Origin: Naegleria gruberi
Lineage: Eukaryota
Direction: 5' to 3' (one strand)
Length of the DNA stretch: 64,000 nucleotides
Assembly (NCBI GenBank): GCA_000004985.1
Contig: GG738859.1
Below, piece by piece: positions 12,438 to 64,000 of this stretch. The notes below the pieces were generated by a model, which was not told the DNA's origin, did no database searches, and saw nothing but the letters and a program-made list of their open reading frames with translations. The first letter of the stretch is position 1. The number at the start of each line of letters is the position of its first letter. The position numbers were made by a program, and so were the translations under genes.

Positions 12438-12663
12438 AATTTTAGATTTTAGTGTCTTCCCTTAACTGCACAATAGCCATTTTCATAACGATGCAATCTC
12501 AAAATAAATTCATGTTAAAAAAATGTTAGAAAAAAATTAATTCTTTCATTTTTGGTAGTTTACCATTTTGGTTAATTTATCTTCAATATTTGCTATTATC
12601 CTTTTTTGTTTTTTTTACTTTTTGGCTACCTTTTCCAAGTTATCTTTAAAAAAAACAAGCAAA

Positions 12664-14883
12664 ATGGTAGAATCACCAATTCTTCAAAAAGATCCTAATG
12701 AACAGCTGTTGCTACAAAGCCAAAAGCCACTTGGTCAACCACAACAGCAACCTTACAATGCCATGCAAATGGAACTCACTCCACAACAGCAAACTCTGGA
12801 AAGTGTTGATAGACAAATGACTCAAGCATTTGGTCAACCATTGCCCCAACAGCAACCCATCCAATTTCAACAGCAACAACCATTAACCAGTAGTAGTGGT
12901 ACCTTGCCAACTGCTAGCAATTTGGAAAGAAGAGAAGAACCTGAAAAACTTATTCAACCTTCTGAAGAATTAATGGAAGAGAAACAAGGTGGTAGTGCTC
13001 TTGGTGTTAGCAACATTTCTGGTTCTAGTAGTGGAGCTACTCAACAAATGTCCATTTCTCCTTCGGTAGAAAAGTCAACCTTGCCACCCTTACCAACTAG
13101 TACCTTGCCTCAATCTGAACCATTTAGCCAGGAACAACATATGGTTAGTCATGATGTGAAAACACCTCACATTCGTGAGTACCCATGTATGAAAGCAGTT
13201 GTTACTTGTAACTATCAACAAGATGAACCAGAACACATGCTTGTTTATGTTGACAAGTATCCAAGACCTATTCGTATGAAATCTGATGAAATTCTTGTCA
13301 GAATGAAATGTGCTAGTGTCAATGATTTGGATTACAAAATCTGTCAAGGTAAAATTCCAGTTGAAATTCAAACTACTCCAATTCATTATCCGCTCATTGT
13401 TGGCGCAGATGGATGTGGTATAATTGAGAAATTAGGTGGAGATCCAACTAATCTCAGAGTAGGTGATTGTGTCTTTGGTTTCACCAATCAATTGGGTACA
13501 TTTGGTGAGTTTGCTATCTTTAAGGAGAGAGAAGTCATGATGAAACCTGACTGGTTGAGTATGGAAATGGCCAGCTGCATTCCATTCAGTGCTCTTGCTG
13601 CAATGAATTGTTTCCTTCTTGTTGATAAGAAGAGAAAGAAGAAACATGGTTTATTGGGTCCTTCCTTGTCAGTAATGAATAGAATTAGCAAATCACCTCG
13701 CTCAGTTGGTCAATCATCAAGCGTAGAAGAATCCTTTGAGAAAAAGGTCATTGAAAGCTCACAATCTCATCAGAAACTAACTCATGAAAATGAACCAATT
13801 AACCTTGAAGTTGTCAACCAACTGTTAAATGGTGACAAATCTGGTTCCATTCTCATCCAAGGAGGTGATACTTATATTGGCTCTTGGTGTATCTTACTAG
13901 CACGTTACTATTTTGGAGCTCAACGTATCTATACAACCATCAGTACAATGGACAATGAAGAATATGTTAGAAAGATGGGTGCTGATGTCATTCTCAATTC
14001 ACACGATGCCAAATATGAAGAAACCATTGAAAAAGATTTGTTGCAATATTGGGAAACATTTTGTTGTGAATTGGATCCTCACAAGAATCAACAAACAATG
14101 CAACCTCCAGCAACCTCTACATTGAATACAAGTACTGGTAGTGAAACTGTAACCCAACAAATGCAACCAACTTCAATGGTCAATCCACATCAAATGCAAA
14201 CTACCCAACAAACCATGCCTAGCTCAAACATGCAACAAACTTCATACACAACCACTACAGAGACAGTTCAAGAACAAGTGGGTTTTCCTTCTTCTTCTCA
14301 ACAAACTCATACAGTTCCAAGTCAAATGGAGTACAAGCCAAGTATGATGCATCAAACAGAACCTTCCAATGTTTCCATGTCTCCTCAACAACCATCTCCA
14401 ACTCATACTCCACTCACTCAATGGCCACATCCTGCCTTTAAATCAAAGAAGGAAATGGAGAAGTGTAAGCTCTTGATTTCAACACTCCAATTATCAATTG
14501 ACACAGTTGGTGGTTATGATAATATGCAAAAGTCATTCAATTTGTTGAATGGAAGTACCAGTCATTACATTACTACCAATCCACCAATTGAGTTGGAACA
14601 AAAGAAGGTCAGTGGAAAGGATGTTTGGAAATTGGTAAGTATGGCAGCTGCAAACAGATTGAAGAGTTTCTTTGCTAATTATCCACATTTCCACCTCTTG
14701 CCTGCTGTTCAATGTGAGAGAGAATTGATGGTAGAGTTGATGAAATGGTTTGAACAAATGGATAGAGATTGGATCCACAAGTTACTTCCATTCAAGACTT
14801 ATCCAATGACTGAAGCTGCTCGTGCTATGGCAGATTGTAAAAAGAATCCTTTCAAATTAGTGATTAACGTATCCAATGAATAA
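12664..14883 (+). CDS. MDR-superfamily (quinone oxidoreductase / Zn-ADH-like) domain protein flanked by Gln/Pro/Thr-rich low-complexity regions (~739 aa)
   Basis: First ATG in the ORF is at 12664 (the track start 12568 is TTG). GroES-like N-domain: CMKAVVTCNYQQDEPEHMLVYVDKYPRPIRMKSDEILVRMKCASVNDLDYKICQGKIPVE..PLIVGADGCGIIEKLGG..LRVGDCVFGF. Rossmann part: SILIQGGDTYIGSWCILLARYYFGAQRIYTTIS. TAA at 14881..14883. Confidence 0.6.
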   Translation: MVESPILQKDPNEQLLLQSQKPLGQPQQQPYNAMQMELTPQQQTLESVDRQMTQAFGQPLPQQQPIQFQQQQPLTSSSGTLPTASNLERREEPEKLIQPSEELMEEKQGGSALGVSNISGSSSGATQQMSISPSVEKSTLPPLPTSTLPQSEPFSQEQHMVSHDVKTPHIREYPCMKAVVTCNYQQDEPEHMLVYVDKYPRPIRMKSDEILVRMKCASVNDLDYKICQGKIPVEIQTTPIHYPLIVGADGCGIIEKLGGDPTNLRVGDCVFGFTNQLGTFGEFAIFKEREVMMKPDWLSMEMASCIPFSALAAMNCFLLVDKKRKKKHGLLGPSLSVMNRISKSPRSVGQSSSVEESFEKKVIESSQSHQKLTHENEPINLEVVNQLLNGDKSGSILIQGGDTYIGSWCILLARYYFGAQRIYTTISTMDNEEYVRKMGADVILNSHDAKYEETIEKDLLQYWETFCCELDPHKNQQTMQPPATSTLNTSTGSETVTQQMQPTSMVNPHQMQTTQQTMPSSNMQQTSYTTTTETVQEQVGFPSSSQQTHTVPSQMEYKPSMMHQTEPSNVSMSPQQPSPTHTPLTQWPHPAFKSKKEMEKCKLLISTLQLSIDTVGGYDNMQKSFNLLNGSTSHYITTNPPIELEQKKVSGKDVWKLVSMAAANRLKSFFANYPHFHLLPAVQCERELMVELMKWFEQMDRDWIHKLLPFKTYPMTEAARAMADCKKNPFKLVINVSNE

Positions 14884-14930: not shown

Positions 14931-17900
14931 TTACTGTTCTTCAATATCTTCAAAATCATCATCGTTTTCAGAGTTGCTATTTCGTGACCAAGCAACTAAT
15001 CCAATTGCAACATTGACCACATACTTGAAGTAGGTCTTTCCATTGATAGTGCACATGGTGGGAGCGTATAAATCTCTTCGTTTCAGTGAATTACCAGCAC
15101 TTCTTAATCCGTTAAGAGTACTTCTTCCAATGTACATAGAGTCAGAATCAAAGTCAGCATTGGCAAACATGAATTTGATTTCCACTTTTTCTAATGCATG
15201 CTTTTCCTCGTTTTTATCAAATGAGCAGAGAGTTAGGAAGATGGCACACTTATCCGATTGGTCATCAACCAGCACTATAATTGTTGAGATAATAATATTT
15301 CATTAAAAACTTACTTTTTGTTTCTCCTTTTGGATAGAAACAAACACACCACTTGAAACCAAATGCATTGATAATATCTGAATAACAATCATCACCATTC
15401 TCCTCTGATGTAGAAAGAATAGAAACAGTATGAATGGATGTTGGCAATTCGTCAAAAGTTCTAAAAATCCAAGGGGCATAATGTCTAGAAGATAATTCCT
15501 TTTCTCCTTGGTGAATTTGTTCAATTTTCTGAACAGTGGTCTCTGTTTTGTATTCTGGAATTTCCAACAGCTTGAGACAAACTACAAACTTGTAAATATC
15601 AAATTCATCATTTGTTTCGAATGGATGGAATTGAGTTGCATCTACATATTCTCCATAGGAACCACCCAACATTTTAAATTTCTTAACATAGACCAAGTAT
15701 GTTATTGGGTTAAAGTCGTAATTGCACATCATGTATTGGAGTTTGATGTGGTCAAACTTGTCATGTTGTAGTGGGCTCTTTGTGGAATCGAGAGTCAAGT
15801 AGATGGAGGAAGTATGTTCATCATCATTTTCATCATCCTTGTCTTTAGGACAAAAATCAATAATCCATCTGTAGCCATAGGCTTCGAAAGGTTCTGATTC
15901 ATAGTGTCTTGTTCTACTTCCGCTCTTTGGAATTTTAACTGTTGTAATGTGGATGGAAGAATCCTTGTAGGATTGTGGAATTCTCTCATGAATGCATTCT
16001 AATGGATCCTTTCCTTCATAGCTCTCAATTGAAAGTTTAGAAATATAATCATCACCAGGATTGAGTGTCTTGGCAAAATTGTCCAAAGCATGTAAGGTAG
16101 GAACGTGATTCTTCAAAATATCTTGATTCATTAAATAGTGAATAAAGTCCAAAACTTTTGAAATGTGAGGATAGCCTCTGGTTAAAATGTCTGCCATTTG
16201 CATAATGTAAAAAACAGGATAATTCTCAATGATACCATAATTATCCAAAATATGCTGAATTATTTGTTCAATGAGTGGATCAATAGATTCATCACCAGTA
16301 AATTCATCAAGTTTGAATAGACCATTGATAGTGTATCTAATTTCTCCAAGATTGAACAATATCATGGATGCAATTGTAAAGCATCTACAAGATGTCACAA
16401 ACTCCAAGCTCTTTCCAATGGCTTTTGCTAACTTTTTCTTTCTTTCATCTGTTACAATCTCTCTATGGTCTCTCATGATATGATCAAGTAATTCGAATAT
16501 ATTGCAAATACCAGTAGAACCTCCACAGCCACTAGGGAATGTTAGTATGTACTTGTAACAGAAATCATAAATTTTTTCTTGTGGTAGAGGTTCTGATTTA
16601 GGGTCGTGAATATATGGATTTTTGCTCAAATATAAATCTAAAGCAAAATTAGCCAAGGTCATTTCTCTACTCTCCAAAAGAATGTTGACGTAATCCTCCA
16701 CTGCATGGTAATTATTATCTCCGTAAATCCAACCATGATATGATTTAAATTCCTCATATTGCTCATCAATTTCCATTTCCTCATTTTCTGGCTCATCTAC
16801 TACAATGGTAACGAATGGATGTTCCTGTTGGAAAATGGAAAATTCTTTGGAAAATAGAATATTTTCACAATATTGAACAACTATAAGATCACAGTTTGTG
16901 AGTTTTCCAAGGTATGGAAGACAGTTATTTGTAATGGTATTGATATGTTCAAGGTATAGGCAAATAAGCTCCTTTTCGTTGAGAGGAAGTAATTGTTCAA
17001 TAAACTTGTCAGAAAGGTCGGATCCTACAAAGAACAATTCTCGCAATCTTGATAATGACAAAATATTGGAAATAAAACCAGGTTCCAAACCAGTGAGGTG
17101 TTGAGTTCCAGTGAACATTAGCTTTTTCAAAGATGTTGGAAGGATAAAATCTGTAAAATCAGTAACCTCCTCTTCAAATGCACTACACTCCAAGCTCTTT
17201 AAATTTTTAAACTCTCTCAGGAATGGAATGTGGCTCTTTTTAATTCCATATAAATTGAGTTTGGTAATATTTTCTTTAGGTAGGTATTGTGCAAGGGAAC
17301 CTCCAATGCCATTTCCTTCAACTTTACTGAGTGGAAAGTTCATTTTTACATTACTCTTCTTAAGTGTTTCATGGAGAGGTTTGAAAACTTTCACTAGTGC
17401 TTCATTGGTATTTTCATCACCTTTAACAAATAAATTAATCAAGTTTGGTGATTTTCTAAGGAATGAAAAGTCCAGATTTGGTTCTTCTAAAATATCTAGA
17501 ATGAGAGTTTCCAAGCTTGGACCGACCAGAGCATTGATAATCTCCGAGAATGGTCCCTTTACATAGAGTCCACTTTTAATTTTCAAGTATTTCAGGGAAT
17601 TTTTCATAGTAGTATTGAGTGATTCCAAACTGGTTTTGGAGGCCTTGAGGAAGAAGGCATAGAGTTGAAATTTGAGGGTCAATGAGTTCAACTTGGTGAG
17701 AGTACTCAGTGTATTTAGAACACCATCAAATGTGAACTTGCTTCCTTCAAATCTTGGAATAAATTTCAAACATAGTTTTTCTAAATATGGAGCCAGTGTA
17801 GAGATTGATTTTTGTGCGTTAACAATGTGAGCCTCAGTGGAGAGAACGTATGGAATATTGAGAGATCTTATATTTCTAAGAGTTTCTGTTTTAAAAATAG

Positions 17901-18901
17901 TATAAAAGCCACCTTGAATAAGAGTCATTTCTTCGTCCATGTCTTCATCTTCGTCATCATAATTTGGACATACTACCAATTTAAAGTCTTGTAATTTTTT
18001 CAATGATTTTAACATCATTTCAACTGGTTTGTCTTGTAAATTGTCGCCTCCTACATAAAATTTGACAAGATTAGGACATTGGTTTACAATGCTCTTAACG
18101 TTCCTATAAACAACTGGATAGTAAATTTCTAATTCTTCCAAAGTAGGAGGAAGTTCAATACTAGCCTGTTTCATATCTTGATCATTAACGTCCAATTCGT
18201 CGGCATCTCTTCCAAGTGAAAGTATTTTAAGATTTTTGAAATGTTTTAATAGTGGAAGGTGTTCCAAGAGAGTATTTGAAATTTTAAGACTCGTTATTGT
18301 TTCCAATAATTTGCTATTGTTTTTGACCCATTCCTTGAGATAACTACCATGTGCTTCATCGAGAGCAAATAATTCCACCTCCTCTAGTGTTTGCAATTTT
18401 GACAAATGACTCAGTCCAACATCTGTTTTTGAAAATAATGATAATATTATTAGAGCAATCTCAAGAACAAATAAACCTACCAGTGAGTGAAAGGGTACTA
18501 ATTAAATCAAAATCTTGAAAATCAATCTTTTTAAGCTTTGGTAAATGTACAAGAAAATGATCAACAATCTTCTCAAACTTGGTATTTGTTGTTCCGACAC
18601 GAATAGAATACTTGGTTTTCATATTAACAAAATAATACCACACCAAATCTGACAAGTTTTTAGAAACAAGTCTAATACGTAATAATTGATTGGTAGTAAA
18701 ATAACCAAACAAGTGTTCAACCCAAACATCATGCGGAACACCAAGAAAATGGTCTATCAAATCCAATCTAAATTCATGATAAAATTGATGATGTTCACTT
18801 CCATTACTAGCAACTATTTCCTCCACTTTTGAATATTCTTGCTGCTGGTGAGACTGCACACCATTTTGCTGCTCCGAATCTTGTGGTGAGGAGTTTTGCA
18901 T
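14931..18901 (-). CDS. F-box / leucine-rich-repeat protein with C-terminal MATH(TRAF-like) domain (3 exons, ~1290 aa)
   Basis: Exon 1 complement(18481..18901) carries the F-box: LDLIDHFLGVPHDVWVEHLFGYFTTNQLLRIRLVSKNLSDLVWYY. Intron 18423..18480 (GTAGGT..AACAG). Exon 2 complement(15315..18422) has ~3.1 kb of LRRs (LxxLxL-type repeats throughout). Intron 15275..15314 (GTAAGT..TATAG). Exon 3 complement(14931..15274). The MATH-like segment spans the last intron: ..AFGFKWCVCFYPKGETK|MLVDDQSDKCAIFLTLCSFDKNEEKHALEKVEIKFMFANADFD. Confidence 0.7.
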
Positions 18902-19170: not shown

Positions 19171-20358
19171 TTATATGAAAGTGAGTATCCTCTTATTGGA
19201 AGAATCAACAATTAGTAATTCTCCAGTTTTTTCACAAAGACAAAGAGCATTAGGAAATGAGAATTCATTTCGTCCCTTTCCTTTTCTTCCAAAACTTTTA
19301 AGATGATGACCATCCTCACTGAATACTTGAAGTCTATGGTTTGAATAGTCACAAACAACTATCCTCTTGTGAACTGAGTCAAAGACAATTGAGCTTGGAT
19401 ATTCCATTCGCCCATTTTCGCTTCCCCTTCCACCAATGATTTTGCTAGTTTTCCAAATTTCTTGATATTGGTTCGAGTTGTCAATCTTTGTTAAATGGCG
19501 TTTCAATATTTGAATTCTGTGAGAAAGACTCTCGGTGACAATCATTTCCCCACAACTTGTAAAGTCAATTCCCCAAGGACTTGTCATTGAAATTCTATCC
19601 TGAATACCTATTGAGGTTACAGTTTGTCCGTTCAATGTTTTCATCACTCGTACACAATTCGAACTTCCATCACAAACGAAAGTGTAATTTCTCTCAACTC
19701 GTCTCTCATTGATAATGTCTACAAATTTCCTTGAAACTATTCCATTTGGATATTTAACATCAGTGTTTCTCCACAAATATTTTGATTCCTTACATTCAAT
19801 CATGGATTTGAGATCGTACTTGTAAACAGAATTATCATTACTTGTAAATAAGAGAGCATCATTTCCGTAGCCATCATAATCTGACTCAATGTGCATATAT
19901 CGAGGGGTGGAAGGTAAATTGATTGAGGTGAGGAATCTACGAGAAATTAAATCAAAGAGTTGAATCATTCTCGACTCCTTCTCACTCACCAAAACACAAG
20001 AGCACGAGAAGGAAATTTTAACATCGAAAGGATTTTTAAGGAGAGGTTGTTGAGAGGAGTTGTTGTCTGGTTGTGAACTTCTTCCATCCTCAATACAAGG
20101 TTCTGAGCAATATTCGAGAGAATGAATGAGATGAAAATTCATGGAGAAACCTTTTGGGGAATCAGAATGGGCCATTCTAATTCGAAGTTGTTCGAAGGAG
20201 GTACTTGTTGATTTGTGCAAGTCTATCAAGTGAACAACTACTTGATCTGCTGTCGATGTTGTTGTGGTTGAGGCCTGATATTGGAACGTCATTATTTTGC
20301 TAAATTCCATGCTTGAAGTAAAATTATTATTAATGAGAGAATCTCTACAGTTGTTCAT
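19171..20358 (-). CDS. NHL-repeat (beta-propeller) protein
   Basis: ORF open from 20526 (TTG), first ATG at 20358. C-terminal repeats of the NHL type: NHRLQVFSEDGHHLKSFGRKGKGRNEFSFPNALCLCEKTGELLIVDSSNKRILTF. An upstream exon cannot be excluded. Confidence 0.6.
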   Translation of the reverse strand: MNNCRDSLINNNFTSSMEFSKIMTFQYQASTTTTSTADQVVVHLIDLHKSTSTSFEQLRIRMAHSDSPKGFSMNFHLIHSLEYCSEPCIEDGRSSQPDNNSSQQPLLKNPFDVKISFSCSCVLVSEKESRMIQLFDLISRRFLTSINLPSTPRYMHIESDYDGYGNDALLFTSNDNSVYKYDLKSMIECKESKYLWRNTDVKYPNGIVSRKFVDIINERRVERNYTFVCDGSSNCVRVMKTLNGQTVTSIGIQDRISMTSPWGIDFTSCGEMIVTESLSHRIQILKRHLTKIDNSNQYQEIWKTSKIIGGRGSENGRMEYPSSIVFDSVHKRIVVCDYSNHRLQVFSEDGHHLKSFGRKGKGRNEFSFPNALCLCEKTGELLIVDSSNKRILTFI

Positions 20359-21597
20359 ATTGTTAGTGTTGTTTTTTCTGATTATTATTTTGAAGAACAC
20401 AATGGAGCAAAAATTTAAATAGCAAAATTCAATGGTTGTCCTCTTGGAATTATAATAATCAAAGTTCGAGATAAGTTTCTTGCAGTACTGAGAGACAGGA
20501 CATTTTCGATGTTCGTCCTTGTACAAAAATATTAATGCTCAATTAATTTGGAAAATATGATGATTGAATCATACATGTTTCAATTTTTCAAAAATCTATC
20601 TTTTCCTTTCCCAAAATCAATCAATTGCTGTTCAATAGGTATACGAAGGATTCTTAGATGGATTCTTGAGTGTTTCTTATTATTTAGAATACAAATCAAT
20701 CTCTATTTTCAATACAGTTCTTTCAGTTTTGTTTTTGATATGATATCTTCCAGATTGGTGTTGACAATTGAAAGTCTGCTGAAATAATTGTTGTCTTGAT
20801 GATAAGAATCCTCCACAGAAGTTTGAAATCTTCTCTTGTAACGGAGGTAGGAGTATGTTGTTTTAAATGGTTCGAAGAATCCTTAGATTTTTCAATCAAT
20901 GTGAAGGAGAACACTCCTTAGATTCGTTTCTATAAGTGTGAGAGAATAAGGCAAATTAAGTCAAAGATAGGTTCATCAAAAGGGAAGTATCACACCATTC
21001 TCATATTATAACCAATATCCAACGTGGATGTTCTTTCAACGTAACAACAGATAAAATCCTTTTCTAATTCGGTGGATAATATTGTTATTGGTGTAGTGTT
21101 GCTTGTTGGATGGAAAATAACGTGAAGATAGGCGTATCTTGGATCATGATTTTTGTTTGCTTGGATTGTGAGTTGGAGAGAAGGTGAGGGCTGTAGTAAT
21201 TAATATTCATTGTACTCTGTGTGTTGAAGATTGCGGATAACCTTAATGTTCTTTGGAACAATCGATAGTATTGAATGATATGCTGGAAAGTATTTGAATG
21301 GTTTTTTATCAAAAAATTCTTCATTTTCTTTGATATTAGAAACTATAAGCGTCTTATTTTCTTTGGTATCAATGGCTCTTCTTAGGTTTTGAGGTTGAAC
21401 TTATTTTCCCGCCAAATTCCTTAACGCCATCTGTAAATTTAGGTTACGAAAAAACTTTAAAATCACTTTAAAAAAATTTGGACAATTACCCTCAGCCTTC
21501 CACTCAGAAGAGCTCTTGTCCAATTATAACAACATCAACAACAACAAAATCATCAACTCATCATCATCAAATTATTGGTTTTATTGGAATAAGGAAT

Positions 21598-24500
21598 ATG
21601 AGTGAGCAAGAGGATATTCATCAACAAGTAGAAAAATTCTGCTTTCAAGCAACTGAGGCAATTAACTCTAATAATTTAAAGTCAGCCTTTGAATTTGTTA
21701 GTAAAGCTAAAAATTGTATGCCCTCAGACTCTTGGACAAATGAATCGTTCTATGAACAAGTTTTAAACGTTAATCTTTTATATGCCGAGTGCGAGTACAT
21801 CTCTGGCAATCATTCATCAGCAATAGAAATATATCAAAGTATTCTGCCCAACATTGTGGATAATGTAGACAGGCTGAAAGTCAGATTTTTACTGCTAAAA
21901 TCATCATCAGCATCATCCAAGTATGAAATTATGTATGACGAATTTATTGACTTGCTGGCGTCAAATCCCTCAACACATTGTCTAGTTGCTAATGGTGATG
22001 CCTTTACCGAAAAATGGATAGAGTCAACAACAATACAAATCAAGGAAAGCCTTGAATCATATTCAACACTTAGTGATGTATTACAAATGAAAGAATGTGA
22101 GGATGAAGAATCTGTAGCATTTGCTAGATGTTTATTGGAATGTATTCAAGGAGTGTACATAGGAAAAAACTCCAACAAAATCTTTCTCTTTGTAACCCCA
22201 CTTTTATTGTTCAAATCAATGCTAGAAGATGGATTGTACATGGATTTAACTCATACCATCTTAACAGCTCTAGGGTAAGATTATTTTATTAGTATCAATT
22301 AACTAAATATTATAGATGGCAATTTTCTTATTTGGATGACCCAAAACTAGGAAGCGACTTGTCAGAGGTTGGTAGTACCTTAGCAAAAGAGCATCACTCT
22401 ACAGAAGCAAATTTTGCCCTCACAAAGTTTTTCGAATTGTGTATAACGGCTTGTACAGGCGGTCTAGATGATGTTTTGAAGGTTTCGTATGATGCTTTCA
22501 AAATTGCAGAAACAGTTGAGGAAATTTCTTGGGGTGCTCAAAGTGGTTTTGTAAGTTTTAGTTCTTGCTTAAGAGTTTTCTAAATTATTACTATAGTGGC
22601 TTGGATTGACAAGTATTTTAAAAGGTTTTGATAAGGATTCGAATGAAAATCATTTGGAGGAAATCAAGACATTCAACAGAAAATGTAGTAGAGAATTCGA
22701 GAGTGATTTACTGGCTTGTATTGAACAAATTCCATTGTTTTTATATGGAGCAACTGAGAATTTTTCCCCTAGTTTCATGCTTGACGGTTTTGAAGAGATA
22801 ACCTTCTCAAGATTAATAGTCTTCTTTACAAAAGCTTTAATTCATTTTTTCAAGGGTCAATATCAGGAAGCAGCTGAGCAAATCAATGAATCTGATGATG
22901 TGATAGATGACTGCTTTGGTACACCGTTTTACATGTTCTACAAGTGGTTTTCCTTCATTATTTTATCCTCCTTCTATGAAAAATATGATGATATAATGGC
23001 AACCAAAAACCAGAAAAAGTCCAAACTTTCAATAATGGAAGTAATGCTTGGTCCCAATGCCAAAGCTCCAAAAACAATGAAAGAAAAGACATTGGAAAGA
23101 ATTTTAGAGCACGAAAAGGATATTCTTGACTTGCATGCCAAGTATCCTCATTTGATGGCAGCTGCTAGATCCATGTGTTCAGCAGAAGTCACTAAATTGC
23201 ACAATGGAGATAAGGATGAAGTGATTGAGCTTTATGTCAATGCGTATGAAGTTTCTGTGAATCAGAATATGCACCTCTATGCTGGTTTGATCCAAAATAG
23301 ACTGTGTGACTTTTGTGTCTCAAATGAAATAGAGACAAAGTTCATCAAATCATACGCAGAAAATGCAATTAAGACATGGAAGATGTGTGGTGCTCATGCA
23401 ATGGTTTCCAAATTGAATGAGCAATATAAGGATGTACTGACGTTGGAGGTTGGAGATTCTCCAGAGTTTGAAAATATTGTTCCTATTGACTCGATACCAC
23501 TGTCCATTGTTCTATCTAAGCAAACTCAAAGTTTCCTTTCATTCTCTAATTGTGATAGATTGGGAATATTTGTAAAAGAGCCAAACACTAAGGAATTCAT
23601 TTTATTGTGCGAAAAAGAAAAGGGACACGAGGTAGAAATTTTCGACGAGTTGGAACTCTCCCAAGCAGATTTCAAGTTTAGCATCAAGTCCCTTAAGATT
23701 TGTCTAAATTGCAAGAATCCTGTAATTATCTCTAATGCTGCTGGAAGTGACTATACAAGAAATCAAGTTTCTGATTGTGAGTATCTGCAGCAAAACAAAA
23801 ATGTAAAAGAACAAATGATTATTCCACTGATTGGAGAATCAATACTGAGAGGAGCCATAGTTTTTGAGTCATCTGTTGAAGAAACATTCAATAAGAACAT
23901 GCTCAATAATACCAAGGCCCTTGTTGATACGCTTATTGATGGGTTGATAATACAGAATGAACAATTTAGAGCCCAAAGAAAGCTTGTTCCATTGGAATCT
24001 CTAAAACAATTAGGCAAGGATGCAGGAAGTGTACAGTTAGGAGATCATGCCATCAAGAACGCTACCATTATGTGTTTGGAATTGAGAAACTTTACGGAAA
24101 TAATAGAATCAGGACTAAGCTTTGTAAACTTGTTAATAGGGACAATATCTCCAATAATAGAAAACCTAGGTGGATTTATAGAAAATTGTACAGGGCCAAA
24201 AATTGTGGCAGTTTTTACTAATTCTTCATCGAAGGCAGTAAGCGCCTCTTTGGATATTGTAAAAGCTTTGAGAGATTTGGGCAAAAATGTTAATTCAAAG
24301 ACAACTCCTTCAATAGGTATTGGTATCCATTCAGGTAGTTGTTCTTTTGGAGTGGTAGGATCTTCTCAAATGTTTTCCATCATGTATTCCGAATCATTTT
24401 CAATGTGTTTGGAACTTACCAAACTTTCAAACAGCTTGGGAGCTATTGTTGTTTTGACTCAAGATGTTCTCGATAGTCTAAATGCTCAAGAGTTGAAATT

Positions 24501-25089
24501 TAAATCAAGAAAGCTAGGGAAATTTATTTTTGAAAACAAAAAGACCCATCCTTATTCACTCTTTGAAATTTCAGGACCTGATTGGATTGAATACAGCAAT
24601 GATATTTCAAAGAATATTTCTCAACAAGTTGAGGAGTGTATTGACTTTTTTTCAAAGAAGAAGTTTGACAAGGTTTTAACCATCACAGAGGGTTTAGAAA
24701 AGACAGTTAGGGACAAGTTTGATAATAATCCTTCACTCTTAGGATCCCTCCCTCATCTCAAACTAATTCAAATGTACAGAGATCAAAGTAAGCGAAATAT
24801 GAGTGTGACCTCTTTGCTGGGTGATTGGTGCGGAGAAATTAGCATTGATCATTCCGGTAATCCACAACATTTATTCGAGCAATCTATAACATCTGAACAA
24901 GTACAGGTAACCCCAAAGGCAAATGAAGTGAATGAAGACATTGAAAAGAAGCTGAGAAGTTTACAAACTCAATTGGAACAACTAAAGTCAGAAAATGAAA
25001 ACTTGAGATCTATTGCCAAGAATGAAGACTCAGGGATGGGATGTTTTTGTATGCCTAGCAGGAAGAAGATACATCCAACTAATAAATAA
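21598..25089 (+). CDS. helical N-domain / GAF / cyclase-homology-domain protein (class III nucleotidyl cyclase-like, probably catalytically degenerate), 3 exons, ~1134 aa
   Basis: Exons 21598..22274, 22316..22550, 22597..25089 (donors GTAAGA, GTAAGT; acceptors TATAG). ORF-track entries 21478.., 22332.. and 22606.. are one gene. GAF-like region: ..KSLKICLNCKNPVIISNAAGSDYTRNQ..NVKEQMIIPLIGESILRGAIVFES. CHD: ATIMCLELRNFTEI (cf. VTILFSDIVGFT, first metal Asp becomes Glu), LGGFIENCTGPKIVAVFT (cf. hGG.v.K.iGDaymavfG, second metal Asp becomes Pro), IGIGIHSGSCSFGVVGSSQMFSIMYSESFSMCLELTK (cf. RIGIHSGPVVAGVIG..YDVWGDTVNLASRMES). Confidence 0.7.
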
Positions 25090-25103: not shown

Positions 25104-26027
25104 TTAATTGTTGTTTTTAGCCTTCTCTGCCTTTTCTAAACCTGTTATAAACTGATCCCAAAGAACAAATTGTTTGGAAATGGTTAAGATCTGTAATTCA
25201 TAATAAATAATAAATATAATTAACACGTTGAAACATACCATACTGTTATAGGCTGATAATTGTTTGAGAATAGTTTCTGCCTGAATGGTGGAAAGATCAT
25301 GCTTTTCCTCCATCGATAAATGAAACTGTTTCAAATCTTCGAGCTTGTTACAAAGTAAGTCCAATTGTTCCCTATCTGAAATCATATCCACAACAGGTAA
25401 TAACTTTTCCAACTCTTCGAAAGACTTTGACATGTGTTCAATCATCTCTTGTTGCTGGTTGATATAATTCAATAGGGCTTCCTTCTTGAGAAGAGATGAT
25501 GGCAATTCTTCCTGAATATTCTCATAATCTGACGAGGTAAAATTTGCATACTCTTGCAAATCCTTTGCTTCCTCAATAAAACTCTCATACTCATAAATAT
25601 TTAAATCTTGTATTTGATCCACAAACTCTTTCACTAGTGGAGTCTCCAAACTCTCAAAATTCTCCTCAATATCCTTCAACTTTTCCAAAAAACTAGGCTT
25701 CTTCTTTTGATTTTTAAATCTATTCCCTATATAATACTCCTGATCAAACTCTTCCCAAATACTATCATTAACATGCTGATGATGATTCGATTTCTGCAAT
25801 CCACCACTGGAATTCAACAAGTGACCAGAATCCCACGTTAATTGTTCCATCGGAAAGAGTCTACACTCCAATTCTCTAATTCTATTCTCCAATTCATCTA
25901 TATTCATTGTTTTATTCAGAACTGTTCTTGTTGAATCATCATCTTGATCTTCATGTTCTACTTCTCTATGTTGTATTTGAGGTTGGCGTTGATTTTCAGT
26001 CATTTTTTTTAAGGTTTTCTTCTTCAT
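25104..26027 (-). CDS. coiled-coil protein (unassigned), 307 aa as continuous ORF
   Basis: ATG 26027..26025, TAA 25106..25104. Heptad-rich acidic sequence. A possible in-frame 48-nt intron (25191..25238, GTATGT..TTACAG) would remove the hydrophobic VCFNVLIIFIIYYELQ segment. Frame alone cannot decide. Confidence 0.5.
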   Translation of the reverse strand: MKKKTLKKMTENQRQPQIQHREVEHEDQDDDSTRTVLNKTMNIDELENRIRELECRLFPMEQLTWDSGHLLNSSGGLQKSNHHQHVNDSIWEEFDQEYYIGNRFKNQKKKPSFLEKLKDIEENFESLETPLVKEFVDQIQDLNIYEYESFIEEAKDLQEYANFTSSDYENIQEELPSSLLKKEALLNYINQQQEMIEHMSKSFEELEKLLPVVDMISDREQLDLLCNKLEDLKQFHLSMEEKHDLSTIQAETILKQLSAYNSMVCFNVLIIFIIYYELQILTISKQFVLWDQFITGLEKAEKAKNNN

Positions 26028-42950: not shown

Positions 42951-44629
42951 ATGAAAACTCTTAAGACAGTTACCTTGCTGGCTTCAAAACAACAAACTAC
43001 AGCCAGAGCCTTCTCCACTACAACTTTAATAACATCCCAGAAATGTCCACATTTAAATTCCGAATCCTCCTCAGAAACATCAACATTAAACAAACAACCA
43101 TTGAAAAGATTTGATGAAATGCCAGGCCCTAAGGGATTACCAGTCCTTGGAAATGCTCTTGAATTGGCCAAACATGCCAACAATCCAGTTCAATATTTTA
43201 CTGAATTGGCTGCTAAATATGGTGATATGGTTAGAACTAGGGTTTTCAATGAAAAGATGGTTTTATTATCTGATCCTCAATTAGCTCGTGTCTTGTCTAG
43301 AGAAGAGGAGGGAAGAATCACTCTCAAAGCTGGAAGACATTACTCCCTCGACAGGGGATATCCACTCATTCCATTATTTGCTTATACACATGAGAATTGG
43401 AATGACATGCGTCAAGTTTTAAATGTTGCTATGAAGCCACAATTTGTTAATGAGATTATTCTTCCACAATTAACTGAATTGAATAGTGATTTATTACAAG
43501 ATATCATCAAACATTTCAAATTTGATAAGGAAAGACAACAGTTCTATATTGAAGATCCAAATAGAGATGTCACAAGCCCGTATGCATTTGGCAGTGTATT
43601 GAAATCAATTCTTGGTGGTCGCTTATCAAAAGAAAAATTGAGTCAATTTGGTTTCACAGTGCGACAATTCATTGACGATGGAAATGTTGGTGCTGATCTC
43701 ATTACAAAACTTCAATATCTTCCACAAATTTACAAATATTACAAAACCAAAGATTACAAAGAATTTGAAAGAGTTTTGGATTTGACTCATACTAGAGTTG
43801 AACGAATGATGGAACTCTATAAGGAAAATGAAAGTGGAAAGGCAAGATTAGTGGAATATTTTGAAGAAAGAGCAAAGGAAAGTAATATGGATTCAAAATG
43901 TGTTGGAGCATGTACTGGAGCTCTGTTCAATGCTGGAACTGATGTTACTGCCAAAGTTTTGGCTATTTTGCTTTACAGAGTAGCTAACGAGAAGGATTAT
44001 GCTGATAGGATGTATGAAGAGCTAGTGACTGTATTTGGAGAACCAACTTTGGATGAAATTACAAGTGAGAATGGACTTGTTGTCACTTCAGAAGACTTGA
44101 AACAATTGAGATTGTGTAAGAATTTCATAGATGAAGTACTGAGGGTTGATCACATTATTCCAATCAGAAATACAAGATATCTCTCAAAAGATATTGAACT
44201 GGGAGGTTATCTTTTAGAAAAGGGAACATTAATCTCCTTTCTGGATGAACTTAACACGCAATCAAAATATGTTCCAAGAGGTTGTGAATTTTTACCAGAT
44301 CGCCATGAGAAGGGATCTGATTTGAGTGAACCAAAGGGTTATCTTGGACCATTTGGTCGTGGTGCTCGTAAATGTCCAGTAAGTTTCAAGTTTAACAATT
44401 AATTCATTAATCGAAAATATAGGGAGAAAGAGTTGCTGGAATTGAAGTTTATTTGACCTTGATTAATGTAGTGAGACATTTCAAATTAGCTCATTCAAAT
44501 GGTGATCAATTTCCTCCATTGTCAGCTGACAAGTCAATGATGTTTATGGATGCTTCAAAGTATAGATTATTCTTCACTCCAAGAGACCATTTAATTAATC
44601 ATTTAAAACAATTAAACAAGTATCAATAA
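42951..44629 (+). CDS. cytochrome P450 (mitochondrial-type presequence), 2 exons, ~544 aa
   Basis: Exon 1 42951..44378, intron 44379..44422 (GTAAGT..ATATAG), exon 2 44423..44629. Presequence MKTLKTVTLLASKQQTTARAFSTT. Pro-rich hinge PGPKGLPVLGN. The heme-binding loop spans the intron: FGRGARKCP|GERVAG (FxxGxRxCxG). Confidence 0.85.
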
Positions 44630-48303: not shown

Positions 48304-51300
48304 TTATTTTTGGAGAAATATTCTAAAATTGCTAAGAACTTCTTCTAAGTTACCTCCAGTTTCATTAATCATTTTACTACCCTTCGCATAATTCTGCTCG
48401 ATATCCAATCCATACATGTATATTACTCCTAACTTTTGCTTTGCATCTATATCACTATCGTCAAATTCAAGAGCCCTTGTATACCACACAAAAGCTTCCT
48501 TGAAATCATTCTTAAATGCATGAAAATCTGCAAGAATCGTCATGCTGTCTTTAACTTGCATTTCTATTGCCTTATTGATCCAATACAAGAATAGTGCGTC
48601 GTCTTGATCCACTCCCTCGCCATGCATATATGAAATAGCAACATTTTTCATTGAATTACTGTCCCCAATAAGTGCAGCTTGTAAGCTGTATTGGAAAGAT
48701 TTTTGAAGATTATCTGAGTCGAAATAAATGGTTGATAATTTTGTCATGCAATATATATTTCCCAATTCGGCTCCTTTGGTGTAGTAAGGGATGGGATCAC
48801 CATTCGAATTGAAATAGTAATAATCTCCTAGTTTCATAAATGCTTCATCGTTGTTGTGAAGAGAAGATCTTTCGAATAATGAAAGAGCTTTTTTCAAGTC
48901 TTTCTCATATCCGATTTCAACACTTCCAATTTCGTACAATTCGCCCAAGTAGTTGAGAGCAGGACCATAGTCGTATCTAGCTGCTAGCTCTATTAATTTT
49001 AGTCCAAACCTTTCGTTTGATAAAACCTTGGACTTTCCAAAATCGAAGCAAGCTTTCGGATCAAAAAGAATTTTGTTCCTTACTTGCTTCACCTCTTGTA
49101 GTACAGTAATAAGAGTCTTTCCAAAAAGTAAATTAATTCCCAATTCTAATTGTAAGCCTTCTTGAGCAGCACAAAACAATTCTTGTTTCAAAAACTCTTC
49201 ATAATTTGGCATTTCAGAGTTGATCTCATAAACAGAACAGGAAAAGTCAATTTTCAGTTTCTTTGGTACCAATTCTCGATTAGTAAATTGTGTTTCATCA
49301 AACCCAGATATAAACAGAACATGCTTGTTGGATATCACGGATTCAATTGCAGTTTTCATTCCGCTTTCTGATAAATTTTGAATGGTTGTTTTAAGATTGA
49401 ACAAAACTAGCTCTTTTGATTGGATCGTAAAAAATTCGTACATTAAATTGAAAAACTCTGCAAGAAACTGAGCTCTATGTTTGATAGTAAGTGCTCTCCC
49501 AATAAATTCGCTTATTTTCTTCATGATTTTTTCTCCAAAATTATTGGAAGTATTTGCAAGTAATAGGTCGAAAATCTCCAATCTAATACTTTCCAAAATG
49601 TGATCCTTATCATTTTGTACAGATATGCGTATATTGTGCTCTTTCAGTTCCAGAGTTTTAGTTATGCAATCAACCATTTGTTGATATACTTCAGAAGCAA
49701 GAGAAGAGCTTTTTTTCAAGGCACCTCTTTTCGATTGATGGTAGTGAGGATATCCAGGGAAATTATCTATAAATCTCAAATCCTCTTCTCTAGTTGCTAC
49801 AGAAATTACACCATTCTTTGGAGAGCCCACTGCATGATTGACAATTTCACAAAGTCTTCTCATTTCCTTATTCCAATTTTCATCATTTGTCCAGTTAGAT
49901 CCATGATGGTCTACGTAGGCATGTCTTACTCCAACCCAATCTTTAAAAACATCTGGTTCAAATGGACGAATATCTTCTTGTTTGATTTCTTCATCAAACA
50001 AGCCAGGTTCAAATATTTTGACATTATCTACAATTAAATCATCCCAGCATACAAAGAATTGATCTCCGTCCAAATCTGATCCTGATATCATATTTGGTAC
50101 AGGTCTTTTACCTTTTGATGAAAAAACAATAACATCACACAAGTGAGATAATTTGGGATAGTAAACTGCTTTGATTTTTCTCAAGTCACCTCTATGAAGA
50201 CAAGGTTCTTTTGTCAATACAATTTCTTTCTGTAGAACTTGTTTGTGACTTGGATTTTTAAATGAAGAAATCTGAACAAATACCTCTCCTTCATTGAGGA
50301 CTTCATAAGGATCTACCACTCCATATAATCTTCTTGAATTTGAGAATGGAATTTTCAATGATGTTATGAGACTCTTGTATGGACCAGCCAGAAATGCAAA
50401 TCCTTTGTTTTTTGTGGTTGAGAGAACATTAAGGGAAATCAAATTATTATCTTTCATATATTGCCTCGCAATAACTTCAGTATCTTCATGAACGTATTTG
50501 TCTAAAGAGTTTTGAACGTGAGCAGATGCCATCTCTAATACTCTCTTTCTCACTTCTCCGTTAGAATCACATCCACTCAGTAAGTGCATGATTGTAGAGT
50601 TGACTCTTGTTAATTCGCATGGACTGGAATGACCAACTATTTGAAGAGTGCTAAAACTTTGGTCAACTTTTTCATTAGTTTTACATTTGACCATTGATTC
50701 TCTCAGTACAATGTGAACTCTATACTTTTCAAATGTTTCAGTATTAACAACAAGCATTCCTTTTGCTCCTCTAAATCTAATTTGAAACGCTGAAGGAATG
50801 TAAGAGCTATCAGAAAACAAATCAAAACCACGTTGCTCATCATATCCAATTTCATCTTCCTCTTGATCAGTTTTTATCAAAACTCTATTTTCGGCATTCA
50901 AGATGTGTTTGTAAACTTTCTTAGCCATGTCTGGAGAAATAAATCCACAACCATCTGTAAAGTTGAAACCATCTCTTTCAATATCTGGAATTACTGTGAA
51001 ATATTGAATGATTTCTGTTGGGATCACTGGTGTATTATAAAGAGCCAATCTAATTCTCTGCTTTAATATATTTTTCGAATCATACAGAGTTGGATTAAGC
51101 TCTTTAGGAATTGCCCATTCTTTAATTTGTTCAACAGTTGAGAGCTTTCTTGTTGGATCCTGCGTATTTGCTAATTGAGGGCAACAATACACATACTTAT
51201 ATGAATGCATTCCACTAGTATTTTGGCAAAGAATATTAAATTGATATTTTCCAAATTTGAAAGGTAATGGATTGATATTGTCTTTAAATGCTTTCTTCCA

Positions 51301-63649: not shown

Positions 63650-64000
63650 GGGTTTGGGTTTGGGTTTGGGTTTGGGTTTGGGTTTGGGTTTGGGTTTGGG
63701 TTTGGGTTTGGGTTTGGGTTTGGGTTTGGGTTTGGGTTTGGGTTTGGGTTTGGGTTTGGGTTTGGGTTTGGGTTTGGGTTTGGGTTTGGGTTTGGGTTTG
63801 GGTTTGGGTTTGGGTTTGGGTTTGGGTTTGGGTTTGGGTTTGGGTTTGGGTTTGGGTTTGGGTTTGGGTTTGGGTTTGGGTTTGGGTTTGGGTTTGGGTT
63901 TGGGTTTGGGTTTGGGTTTGGGTTTGGGTTTGGGTTTGGGTTTGGGTTTGGGTTTGGGTTTGGGTTTGGGTTTGGGTTCGGGTTTGGGTTTGGGTTTGGA
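63650..64000 (+). repeat. telomeric repeat (GGGTTT)n, ~58 units, running to the window end (chromosome terminus; G-rich strand 5'->3' toward the end)
   Basis: Perfect hexamer array from 63650. One variant unit GGGTTC at ~63974..63979. Preceded by AT-rich unique sequence and the satellite. Confidence 0.9.

What the first reader, a model, noticed from the sequence alone, without database searches (positions are those of the whole stretch)
21598..25089. GAF-cyclase-homology protein whose second metal-binding Asp is replaced by Pro: candidate pseudo-cyclase or regulatory subunit
The CHD is recognisable (..IGIGIHSGSCSFGVVG..). The FxDIxGFT block reads CLELRNFT (Asp becomes Glu) and the hGG..K.iGD block reads GGFIENCTGP (Asp becomes Pro). 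The Asn/Arg transition-state pair also looks altered. As with mammalian AC C2 domains, such a domain may only function as the non-catalytic half of a heterodimer. Alternatively it is a cNMP- or ligand-regulated scaffold (it has a GAF domain upstream).
Basis: partly seen in the sequence, partly recalled or inferred. Interest (0 to 1): 0.55.

Follow-up and report, generated by a model that had tools for sequence, protein, structure and literature searches.

The report
Dead adenylate-cyclase domain kept by selection
This Naegleria gruberi gene is labelled "adenylate cyclase" in public databases, but its cyclase domain has lost every residue needed to make cAMP or cGMP and is still strongly conserved, so it is a non-catalytic signalling protein rather than an enzyme.

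Summary
Window 21598-25089 (+) is a three-exon eukaryotic gene. Its 1134-aa product is identical to N. gruberi XP_002679040.1, annotated "adenylate cyclase". The architecture is a TPR-like helical solenoid, a GAF domain, a class III cyclase homology domain (CHD), a helical hairpin, a coiled coil and a Cys-rich tail.

- metal Asp1 to Glu799
- metal Asp2 to Pro838
- base-specifying Lys to Asn834 and Thr/Asp to Ile899
- ribose Asn to Ser906
- transition-state Arg to Glu910
- beta7-beta8 Lys to Glu950

Orthologues in N. fowleri, N. lovaniensis and Willaertia also lack these residues, and carry different substitutes. The mammalian C2-like "half of a heterodimer" idea therefore fails, because C2 must supply Lys, Asp, Asn and Arg.

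It is not a pseudogene. dN/dS is 0.09 for the CHD and 0.07 for the gene, and synteny is conserved.

It is a truncated, output-dead derivative of the kinase-AAA_16-TPR-GAF-cyclase signalling family. The most likely role is a non-catalytic dimeric scaffold or regulator. This makes it a moderately interesting pseudoenzyme and shows that the database annotation is wrong.

The parts
21598..25089 (+). Whole gene, with CDS exons 21598-22274, 22316-22550 and 22597-25089. It encodes 1134 aa, identical to N. gruberi XP_002679040.1.
   Evidence: Splice model. Identity to P0171. An orthologue fragment (P0023) begins at the same Met and ends at the exon-1 boundary.
22275..22315 (+). Intron 1 (41 nt, GTAAG...TATAG, phase 2). 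Its position is shared with N. lovaniensis.
   Evidence: The P0002 coding segments break at the same ...LG|WQ... junction.
22551..22596 (+). Intron 2 (46 nt, GTAAG...TATAG, phase 0). It is absent from N. fowleri and N. lovaniensis.
   Evidence: It has 3 mismatches and 1 gap in 46 nt between two N. gruberi strains, against 17 differences in the 2493 nt of exon 3. P0003 and P0002 read straight through this position.
21598..23454 (+). N-terminal all-alpha TPR-like solenoid (residues 1-590, spanning both introns). It is the most conserved part of the protein.
   Evidence: Identity is 69% to N. lovaniensis and 49% to Willaertia. BLASTP to the AAA_16-to-GAF spacer of kinase-AAA_16 proteins gives E 1e-14 to 3e-20, and 3e-107 to P0021. 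The AF2 model is all-helical with pLDDT 81. Foldseek best hits are TPR solenoids (Rap, NprR, LGN) at E about 0.01 only.
23014..23121 (+). Nearly invariant segment KKSKLSIMEVMLGPNAKAPKTMKEKTLERILEHEKD (residues 444-479). Its first part is predicted to be a disordered loop, so it is a candidate linear motif or regulatory site.
   Evidence: Invariant columns K444 to D479 in the four-species alignment. pLDDT is below 50 at model residues 141-154. Related versions occur in P0021 and in Acrasis P0062.
23500..23979 (+). Divergent GAF domain plus its long C-terminal connecting helix (residues about 606-765).
23977..24570 (+). Class III cyclase homology domain with its N-terminal RxxVP...LGKD...LGD arm (residues 765-962). 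The fold is intact and the domain is catalytically dead.
24079..24081 (+). Glu799 at the metal-binding Asp1 position (CLELRNFT against F-x-D-I-R-G-F-T).
   Evidence: Orthologues have E, E, N and G.
24184..24198 (+). Asn834 at the base-specifying Lys/Glu position and Pro838 at the metal-binding Asp2 position (GGFIENCTGP against GGFIDKYIGD).
   Evidence: Orthologues have R/R/R/R at the first position and G/G/S/Q at the second.
24379..24414 (+). Ile899 (Thr/Asp specificity position), Ser906 (ribose-orienting Asn) and Glu910 (transition-state Arg), in SIMYSESFSMCLE against T-V-I-S-D-A-V-N-L-S-S-R.
   Evidence: Residue roles are from PMC2576301.
24532..24534 (+). Glu950 at the triphosphate-binding Lys of the beta7-beta8 loop (FENKK against VKGK).
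   Evidence: Pairwise alignment and MAFFT alignment. The role of this Lys is from PMC2576301.
24580..24864 (+). Post-CHD helical hairpin ending in the family-wide W-x-G-E motif (DWCGEISID, residues 966-1060).
   Evidence: It aligns with the C-terminal extensions of active bacterial and eukaryotic members, with W458 and G460 invariant in A3. Helices 383-449 are in the AF2 model.
24940..25011 (+). Predicted coiled coil (IEKKLRSLQTQLEQLKSENENLRS, residues about 1086-1109).
   Evidence: ENENLR is invariant across orthologues. Weak coiled-coil Pfam hits were found (GIT_CC, FlaC).
25039..25077 (+). Conserved C-terminal Cys-rich basic tail GCFCMPSRKKIHP (residues 1119-1131), a candidate S-acylation and membrane-anchor site.
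   Evidence: G1119, C1120, F1121, C1122, K1127, H1130 and P1131 are invariant. Acrasis P0062 ends in SCLCLPSPNRIKPS. The lipidation role is inference only.

Best explanation
**What is shown**
- The gene encodes a catalytically dead 'pseudo-cyclase'.
- It is a Heterolobosea-specific derivative of the modular signalling family Ser/Thr kinase - AAA_16 (STAND-type NTPase) - TPR-like solenoid - GAF - class III cyclase - helical hairpin.
- It starts directly with the solenoid, so it has no kinase or NTPase.
- It has replaced all seven catalytic residues of the cyclase domain.
- It has gained a coiled coil and a Cys-rich basic tail.
- The cyclase and GAF folds are intact.
- The whole gene, dead domain included, is under strong purifying selection.

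**What follows**
- Both the metal-binding half and the base, ribose and transition-state half of the active site are gone.
- The protein therefore cannot make cAMP or cGMP as a homodimer.
- It also cannot complement a partner in the way mammalian C1 or C2 do.

**What is inferred**
- It works as a non-catalytic dimeric signalling scaffold.
- The GAF domain, linker arm and pseudo-cyclase unit, together with the coiled coil, keep the dimerising and conformational-switch apparatus of its active relatives.
- The highly conserved solenoid and its invariant loop bind partner proteins.
- The Cys-rich tail tethers the complex to a membrane.
- Output is through protein-protein interaction, possibly including inhibitory pairing with active paralogues, and not through a second messenger.
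For: **Gene model and identity.**

**Fold.**
- Solenoid: all-alpha AF2 model.

**Catalytic residues.** Four concordant alignments. The six-position string is ENPISE, against the family consensus DKDTNR found in 109 of 176 CHDs. Orthologues carry ERGTSH (N. fowleri and N. lovaniensis), NRSTDC (Willaertia) and GRQVHL (Acrasis relative), so these positions drift freely.

**Selection.**
- N. lovaniensis against N. fowleri dN/dS: solenoid 0.04, GAF 0.06, CHD 0.09 (39 non-synonymous and 80 synonymous changes), hairpin 0.13, tail 0.055.
- Between two N. gruberi strains, exon 3 has 11 synonymous and 6 non-synonymous differences.
- The downstream dynactin-p22-like gene and the next ORF are syntenic in three species. 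They are only 34-38% identical, against 55-59% for this gene.

**Family context.**
- P0006, P0024, P0026 and P0030 (the last from N. lovaniensis) are Pkinase-AAA_16-...-GAF-CHD proteins.
- The solenoid aligns along about 570 aa with their spacer region.
- P0021 keeps AAA_16 plus a 34%-identical solenoid.
- Bacterial relatives swap the output domain among CHD, histidine kinase, GGDEF and phosphatase.

**N-terminus.** All orthologues start at the same point. About 1 kb of non-coding DNA upstream separates the gene from a divergently transcribed NHL-repeat gene.
Against: - No biochemical assay was done, so inactivity is inferred from residue roles established in other class III cyclases.
- Glu799 could in principle still bind a metal.
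- The scaffold, dimer and membrane-anchor mechanism is inference. No partner has been identified, no multimer was modelled, and S-acylation is unproven.
- GAF and CHD are the least conserved parts (27-46% identity against 49-69% for the solenoid). Their role may be merely structural.
- No expression data were available.
Confidence: 0.72

Rival explanations
1. C2-like (or C1-like) regulatory half. The domain is inactive alone but forms one working active site with a complementary cyclase domain from another protein, as mammalian AC C1/C2 or sGC alpha/beta do.
For: Both metal Asp are missing, which superficially resembles C2. Tandem-CHD relatives with truly complementary degeneracy exist in the family, for example P0114 (DTDSTQ + EKDTNR) and P0132 (NKSTNR + DKDIDT). 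Naegleria has at least 81 cyclases as potential partners (PMC9928731).
Against: A C2-type half must supply Lys, Asp/Thr, Asn and Arg. Here these are Asn, Ile, Ser and Glu, and they differ in every orthologue. A C1-type half must supply the two Asp, and here these are Glu and Pro. Neither half-site is available (roles from PMC2576301). No second CHD lies in the window.
Confidence: 0.05
2. Dominant-negative subunit. The dead CHD pairs with the CHD of active kinase-AAA-GAF-cyclase paralogues, aided by the coiled coil. It poisons both interface active sites and so tunes cAMP output.
For: The CHD scaffold stays 30-35% identical to active relatives, as close as it is to its own Willaertia orthologue. 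Class III active sites are built across the dimer interface (PMC2576301). Active paralogues exist in Naegleria (P0030 and P0170). The dead domain is under purifying selection.
Against: There is no evidence of heterodimerisation. The search from P0021 found no close Naegleria paralogue sharing the solenoid or tail. The protein's own coiled coil would favour homodimers.
Confidence: 0.13
3. Nucleotide or small-ligand sensor. The degenerate inter-subunit pocket, or the GAF pocket, binds ATP/GTP or another ligand without turnover and gates the solenoid's interactions. This would resemble the P. aeruginosa class III cyclase-like ATP-binding protein.
Against: The pocket-lining catalytic positions are not conserved among orthologues, which argues against a conserved ligand site there. 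No conserved NKFDE-type motif is seen in the GAF on inspecting the alignment. GAF is the least conserved domain.
Confidence: 0.08
4. Still an active cyclase that uses non-canonical catalytic residues, so the database annotation 'adenylate cyclase' is correct.
For: NCBI and UniProt name it adenylate cyclase. Glu799 is a conservative change at one metal site.
Against: Seven of seven functional positions are changed, including Asp to Pro and Arg to Glu. The replacements are not conserved between species, which is the opposite of what a working alternative site would show.
Confidence: 0.02
5. Decaying pseudogene or mis-assembled gene model.
For: The Pfam score is at threshold. Acrasis P0062 has no Pfam hit at all.
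Against: The 1134-codon reading frame is intact and has canonical introns. dN/dS is 0.07 overall. Orthologues occur in four species with conserved synteny. The gene is more conserved than its neighbours.
Confidence: 0.01

Closest known systems
Pkinase-AAA_16-TPR-GAF-class III cyclase proteins. Examples are N. lovaniensis XP_044543424.1 (P0030) and cyanobacterial Microcoleus 'AAA family ATPase / adenylate cyclase 1' (P0183), plus P0006.
   Same: The solenoid, GAF, N-terminal CHD arm (RFxP...LGxx...LGD), CHD and post-CHD helical hairpin with W-x-G are homologous and collinear.
   Different: The window protein has no kinase and no AAA_16 NTPase. All CHD catalytic residues are lost. It has an extra coiled coil and a Cys-rich tail.
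P0026, an uncultured eukaryote from a Logan assembly (2025 aa), with Pkinase-AAA_16-TPR-GAF-degenerate CHD
   Same: Its CHD is also degenerate (NRDSST: Asp1, Lys, Asn and Arg lost) and is no longer detected by Pfam. It shares the RRLGKFIF and W-S-G-E-I motifs and has a coiled-coil-like tail.
   Different: It keeps the kinase, the NTPase and metal Asp2, and it has no Cys-x-Cys tail.
Mammalian adenylyl cyclase C2 domain and sGC beta catalytic domain (pseudo-heterodimer halves)
   Different: C2 and sGC-beta keep the base-specifying, Asn and Arg residues and so complete one active site (PMC2576301). This domain keeps none of them.
P. aeruginosa class III adenylyl cyclase-like ATP-binding protein (PDB 6yii)
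   Different: It is bacterial, has a different domain order, and its sequence relationship is far more distant (9% identity). Whether the Naegleria domain binds ATP is unknown.
Acrasis kona KAL0476666.1 (P0062)
   Same: It has a fully degenerate CHD (GRQVHL). It also has the same invariant loop motif (KKQFSIMEHVLGKD..KRPKTEKER), the W-C-G-E-I-L-V-D motif, a coiled coil and a C-terminal SCLCLPS..RIKPS tail.
   Different: It has no GAF between solenoid and CHD. Its solenoid is closer to that of P0021. The gene model is N-terminally incomplete.

Membership tests
Class III nucleotidyl cyclase (PF00211, catalytically competent member) | Cyclase homology domain fold | tested here: met
Class III nucleotidyl cyclase (PF00211, catalytically competent member) | Pfam gathering score of 21.9 bits | tested here: inconclusive
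   Exon-3 product scores 22.2 bits and the full 1134-aa protein 21.2 bits. Only profile positions 68-169 are aligned.
Class III nucleotidyl cyclase (PF00211, catalytically competent member) | Two metal-binding Asp (beta1 FxDIxGFT and the beta2-beta3 GD) | tested here: not met
   Glu799 and Pro838 occupy these positions.
Class III nucleotidyl cyclase (PF00211, catalytically competent member) | Base-specifying pair (Lys + Asp/Thr for ATP, Glu + Cys for GTP) | tested here: not met
   Asn834 and Ile899 occupy these positions.
Class III nucleotidyl cyclase (PF00211, catalytically competent member) | Ribose-orienting Asn and transition-state Arg in alpha4 | tested here: not met
   Ser906 and Glu910 occupy these positions.
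Class III nucleotidyl cyclase (PF00211, catalytically competent member) | cAMP or cGMP synthesis | not testable with these tools
   This needs an enzyme assay.
C2-type complementary half-domain (mammalian AC C2 / sGC beta) | Lacks the metal Asp but retains the Lys/Glu, Asp/Cys, Asn and Arg donated to the partner's site | tested here: not met
   All four donated residues are substituted, and differently in each orthologue.
GAF domain | GAF fold | tested here: met
GAF domain | Significant Pfam or PDB sequence match | tested here: not met
   There is no Pfam GAF hit at E<=1 for this protein. One orthologue hits at E 0.005. A profile against PDB gave only E 0.07-4 to GAF chains.
GAF domain | cNMP-binding signature (NKFDE-type motif of PDE/CyaB GAFs) | tested here: inconclusive
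   The motif definition comes from my own knowledge. On inspecting alignment A1, no conserved N-K...F-x3-D-E pattern is present.
Kinase-AAA_16 (STAND-type)-TPR-GAF-output signalling proteins | N-terminal Ser/Thr kinase and AAA_16 NTPase | tested here: not met
   There are no Pfam hits. The protein and all orthologues start at the solenoid. No coding capacity is seen in the 1 kb upstream.
Kinase-AAA_16 (STAND-type)-TPR-GAF-output signalling proteins | Homologous solenoid-GAF-output core | tested here: met
   P0006 aligns over 92% of the query. The profile search recovers 2020 proteins at E<=1e-30, and most of the long ones among the best 150 match from the end of the solenoid (profile position about 430-520 of 1119) through GAF and CHD. 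BLASTP with the solenoid gives E 1e-14 to 3e-107.
Processed or decaying pseudogene | Relaxed selection (dN/dS near 1) and disrupted frame | tested here: not met
   dN/dS is 0.066 overall and 0.093 in the CHD. The frame is intact and orthologues are syntenic.

The most novel reading that the evidence does not exclude
Heterolobosean amoebae keep a dedicated, membrane-tethered decoy subunit. In this reading, an S-acylated, coiled-coil-dimerised TPR-GAF-pseudo-cyclase pairs with and silences active kinase-NTPase-GAF-cyclase paralogues, or recruits them through its solenoid. That would add a pseudoenzyme-based layer of control to Naegleria's very large cyclase repertoire, for example during the amoeba-flagellate-cyst transitions.
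Probability: 0.13. Interest if true: 0.55.

Novelty: new variant of a known kind. Interest (0 to 1): 0.33.

Why it matters
It corrects a functional annotation. XP_002679040.1 and its N. fowleri and N. lovaniensis orthologues are labelled adenylate or guanylate cyclase, but they cannot be cyclases. Counts of "cyclases" in Naegleria genomes therefore include non-enzymes.

It also gives a clean eukaryotic example of a class III cyclase domain that lost every catalytic residue before the Naegleria-Willaertia split. The domain has since been held under strong purifying selection, which implies a conserved non-catalytic job for this fold.

If that job is regulation of active paralogues, it would be a new control principle for cAMP signalling in a group that includes the pathogen N. 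fowleri. Otherwise this is an ordinary pseudoenzyme in an expanded family.

Tried and rejected
- **Second CHD or partner in the window.** tblastn with two active CHDs finds only this gene.
- **Upstream kinase or NTPase exons.** The three forward frames of 20527-21597 are full of stops, and the orthologues start at the same Met.
- **First profile submission.** The search was redone with the exon-3 translation.
- **Fold of the solenoid.** Foldseek gave only weak TPR matches (E about 0.01, none at or below 0.001). It is therefore called 'TPR-like', not TPR.
- **Literature.** Searches for pseudo-cyclase or inactive cyclase homology domain returned one irrelevant mention. Nothing was found on this protein.
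- **Naegleria paralogue sharing the solenoid.** The search seeded with P0021 returned only distant (at most 31% identity) relatives; those that carry a source name are bacterial, and no Naegleria protein was among them.
- **Word-indexed search with the GAF-CHD alignment.** It returned only 14 proteins and was of little use beyond deepening the MSA.
- **Pseudogene reading.** Rejected by dN/dS.
Full report
**1. What is at the coordinates**

The window is eukaryotic. GC content is about 33%, and genes are interrupted by 41-46-nt GTAAG...TATAG introns. Three same-strand ORFs lie at 21478-22278, 22332-22583 and 22606-25089. They join cleanly into exons 21598-22274, 22316-22550 and 22597-25089, giving a 1134-codon reading frame.

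The product is identical, residue for residue, to P0171. That protein is XP_002679040.1 / EFC46296.1 / UniRef D2VAF0, named "adenylate cyclase [Naegleria gruberi strain NEG-M]".

Orthologues are:
- N. lovaniensis (P0002, 57-59% identity)
- N. fowleri (P0003, in the cluster of XP_044569713.1, 54-55% identity)
- Willaertia magna (P0004, 40% identity)

A second N. gruberi strain is 98% identical (P0001/L001). The downstream dynactin-p22-like gene and the following ORF are syntenic in N. gruberi, N. lovaniensis and N. fowleri.

**2. Checking the observation**

Homology of residues 765-962 to class III cyclase domains is beyond doubt, even though Pfam sits at threshold. PF00211 scores 22.2 bits for exon 3 and 21.2 bits for the full protein, against a cut-off of 21.9, and covers profile positions 68-169 only. 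The stronger evidence is:
- tblastn of an active bacterial CHD against the window gives E 6e-23.
- BLASTP to the active CHD P0050 gives E 1e-30 and 35% identity over 210 columns.
- An AlphaFold2 model of GAF-CHD-hairpin has mean pLDDT 80.

Residue mapping was done four ways:
- phmmer against Cya2 2w01
- MAFFT with two canonical CHDs
- an HMM alignment of the 176 CHDs found in the 150 best profile hits
- the pairwise BLAST alignment

All four agree:

| Canonical position | Residue in this protein |
|---|---|
| Metal Asp1 | Glu799 |
| Base-specifying Lys/Glu | Asn834 |
| Metal Asp2 | Pro838 |
| Base-specifying Thr/Asp | Ile899 |
| Ribose-orienting Asn | Ser906 |
| Transition-state Arg | Glu910 |
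| Triphosphate-binding Lys (beta7-beta8 loop) | Glu950 |

The roles of these residues, and the fact that the two halves of each site come from different subunits, are taken from PMC2576301.

In the comparison set, 109 of 176 CHDs read D-K-D-T-N-R, the adenylate-cyclase Lys/Thr type. A further 36 keep D, D, N and R. The window protein reads E-N-P-I-S-E.

**3. The substitutions are old and unconstrained, but the domain is not**

The same six positions read:
- E-R-G-T-S-H in N. fowleri and N. lovaniensis
- N-R-S-T-D-C in Willaertia
- G-R-Q-V-H-L in a related Acrasis kona protein, P0062

The loss therefore predates the Naegleria-Willaertia split. No alternative conserved catalytic constellation has replaced the lost residues.

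Selection is nevertheless strong. A codon alignment of the N. lovaniensis and N. fowleri genes (dS about 0.8) gives these dN/dS values:

| Region | dN/dS |
|---|---|
| Solenoid | 0.04 |
| GAF | 0.062 |
| CHD | 0.093 (39 non-synonymous, 80 synonymous changes) |
| Helical hairpin | 0.127 |
| Tail | 0.055 |
| Whole gene | 0.066 |

Two N. gruberi strains differ in exon 3 by 11 synonymous and 6 non-synonymous changes. The 46-nt intron 2 alone carries 3 mismatches and a gap.

The protein is 55-59% identical between N. gruberi and the N. fowleri / N. lovaniensis pair. Its two syntenic neighbours are only 34-38% identical. A decaying pseudogene is excluded.

**4. Architecture and family**

Going from N- to C-terminus:

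(a) Residues 1-590 form an all-helical TPR-like solenoid.
- The AF2 model of residues 305-590 has pLDDT 81.
- Foldseek best hits are TPR solenoids such as Rap, NprR and LGN, but only at E about 0.01.
- Pfam TPR hits are sub-threshold, and one orthologue gives a weak TPR_CHK1 hit.
- This is the best conserved part of the protein, at 69% and 49% identity.
- It contains a nearly invariant stretch, KKSKLSIMEVMLGPNAKAPKTMKEKTLERILEHEKD (444-479). The first half of that stretch is predicted to be disordered.

(b) Residues about 606-765 form a divergent GAF domain.
- There is no Pfam hit for this protein.

(c) Residues 765-962 are the CHD, preceded by the family's conserved arm R-x-x-V-P...L-G-K-D...L-G-D. 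This resembles the Leu-Pro-containing cyclase transducer element described for class III cyclases (PMC13466520). That equivalence is my inference.

(d) Residues 966-1060 form a helical hairpin ending in W-x-G-E, shared with active bacterial and eukaryotic members.

(e) The C-terminus carries a coiled coil (ENENLR invariant) and the tail GCFCMPSRKKIHP.

The full-length profile search of 1.84 billion representatives found 28,043 relatives at E<=1e-3. Most of the long ones among the best 150 match from the end of the solenoid through GAF and CHD, and the four I scanned with Pfam, plus most P0021 homologues by precomputed Pfam, are Pkinase-AAA_16-...-GAF-CHD proteins. They occur in cyanobacteria such as Microcoleus, in other bacteria, and in protists. 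The protist set includes active N. lovaniensis paralogues P0030 and P0170.

Bacterial homologues of P0021 show the same chassis with interchangeable outputs: CHD, histidine kinase, GGDEF or SpoIIE phosphatase.

The window solenoid aligns along about 570 residues with the spacer between AAA_16 and GAF in these proteins, at E 1e-14 to 3e-20. It matches P0021 at 34% identity (E 3e-107), and P0021 still carries AAA_16.

The window protein is therefore a derived member that has lost both the kinase-NTPase input and the catalytic output. P0026 is an intermediate: it keeps the kinase and AAA_16, and its CHD reads N-R-D-S-S-T.

**5. Mechanism**

Shown: the protein cannot assemble a class III active site. 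Each site needs the two Asp from one subunit, plus Lys, Thr/Asp, Asn and Arg (and the loop Lys) from the other (PMC2576301). This domain offers neither set.
- A homodimer is dead.
- A heterodimer with a complete partner has two half-broken sites.
- It cannot play C2 to someone else's C1, or the reverse.

True C1/C2-style complementation does occur in tandem-CHD relatives, for example P0114 and P0132, so the concept is valid for the family but not for this protein.

Inferred: selection preserves the fold, the linker arm, the hairpin, a coiled coil, a solenoid and a Cys-rich basic tail. The most economical reading is therefore a dimeric, probably membrane-associated scaffold or regulator whose output is protein-protein interaction.

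Two more specific versions remain open:
- inhibitory pairing with active paralogues
- a non-hydrolysing nucleotide or ligand sensor, with precedent in 6yii, a class III cyclase-like ATP-binding protein

The free drift of the pocket residues argues against a conserved ligand in the old active site.

**6. Comparison and novelty**

It works like a pseudoenzyme module. [quoted passage not shown] It also fails the input-domain criteria of the kinase-AAA_16 family from which it descends.

The sequence itself is already in public databases under a misleading name. I found no paper that discusses it, or non-catalytic CHDs in Naegleria. Naegleria is reported to have at least 81 cyclases (PMC9928731), and dead copies in such an expansion are not surprising.

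What is mildly notable:
- the completeness of the catalytic loss
- its age
- the strength of the constraint
- the clade-specific additions, namely the invariant loop and the coiled coil plus Cys tail, which are shared with Acrasis

**7. Verdict**

- It is a new variant of a known kind.
- Interest is about 0.33.

Noticed in passing
window 63649-63999: (TGGGTT)n, 58.5 copies at 99% identity, runs to the 3' end of the window. It looks like a G-rich telomeric repeat, so the window probably ends at a chromosome end.
   Followed up: no
window 60001-63600: An extremely AT-rich block (GC 14-19% against about 33% elsewhere). It has long overlapping ORFs on both strands at 60924-62930, which I assume are compositional artefacts. 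It is presumably subtelomeric.
   Followed up: no
window 58297-59161: A tandem repeat with a 315-nt period (a multiple of three), 2.8 copies, 86% identity. It may be an in-frame 105-aa protein repeat.
   Followed up: no
window 23014-23121 (residues 444-479): The stretch KKSKLSIMEVMLGPNAKAPKTMKEKTLERILEHEKD is almost invariant from Naegleria to Willaertia, and recognisable in P0021 and in Acrasis P0062. AlphaFold nevertheless predicts its first half as a low-confidence loop. It is a candidate linear motif or modification site.
   Followed up: partly
window 25039-25077 (residues 1119-1131): The C-terminal motif G-C-F-C-(M/V)-P-S-x-K-K-(I/V)-H-P is conserved in Naegleria and Willaertia and echoed in Acrasis (SCLCLPSPNRIKPS). 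It is absent from the active paralogues that were inspected. It may be an S-acylation or membrane-targeting signal.
   Followed up: partly
window 22551-22596; L002, L003: Intron 2 is present in N. gruberi but absent from N. fowleri and N. lovaniensis. The position of intron 1 is shared with N. lovaniensis. A prokaryote-style gene call on a metagenome contig (P0001) reads straight through intron 2 of another N. gruberi strain.
   Followed up: partly
window 48304-52071 (-): A large ORF encodes a eukaryotic RNA-dependent RNA polymerase domain (PF05183, E 4e-81) fused to Sel1 repeats.
   Followed up: no
window 19171-20526 (-), 25104-26027 (-), 42951-44402 (+), 12568-14883 (+), 15265-18405 (-): The neighbouring genes are functionally unrelated: an NHL-repeat beta-propeller, a dynactin p22-like protein, a cytochrome P450, an ADH-like protein and a MATH-domain protein. 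There is no operon-like signalling context.
   Followed up: yes
P0114, P0132, P0022 (relatives, not in the window): Bacterial-type relatives with two or three tandem CHDs show complementary degeneracy, for example DTDSTQ + EKDTNR. These are built-in C1/C2-like pseudo-heterodimers within the same CHD subfamily.
   Followed up: no
P0026 (Logan assembly) and P0062 (Acrasis kona): These are further degenerate CHDs in protist relatives. P0026 keeps the kinase and AAA_16 but reads NRDSST. P0062 has no Pfam hit at all. Catalytic loss may have happened more than once, or stepwise, in this family.
   Followed up: partly
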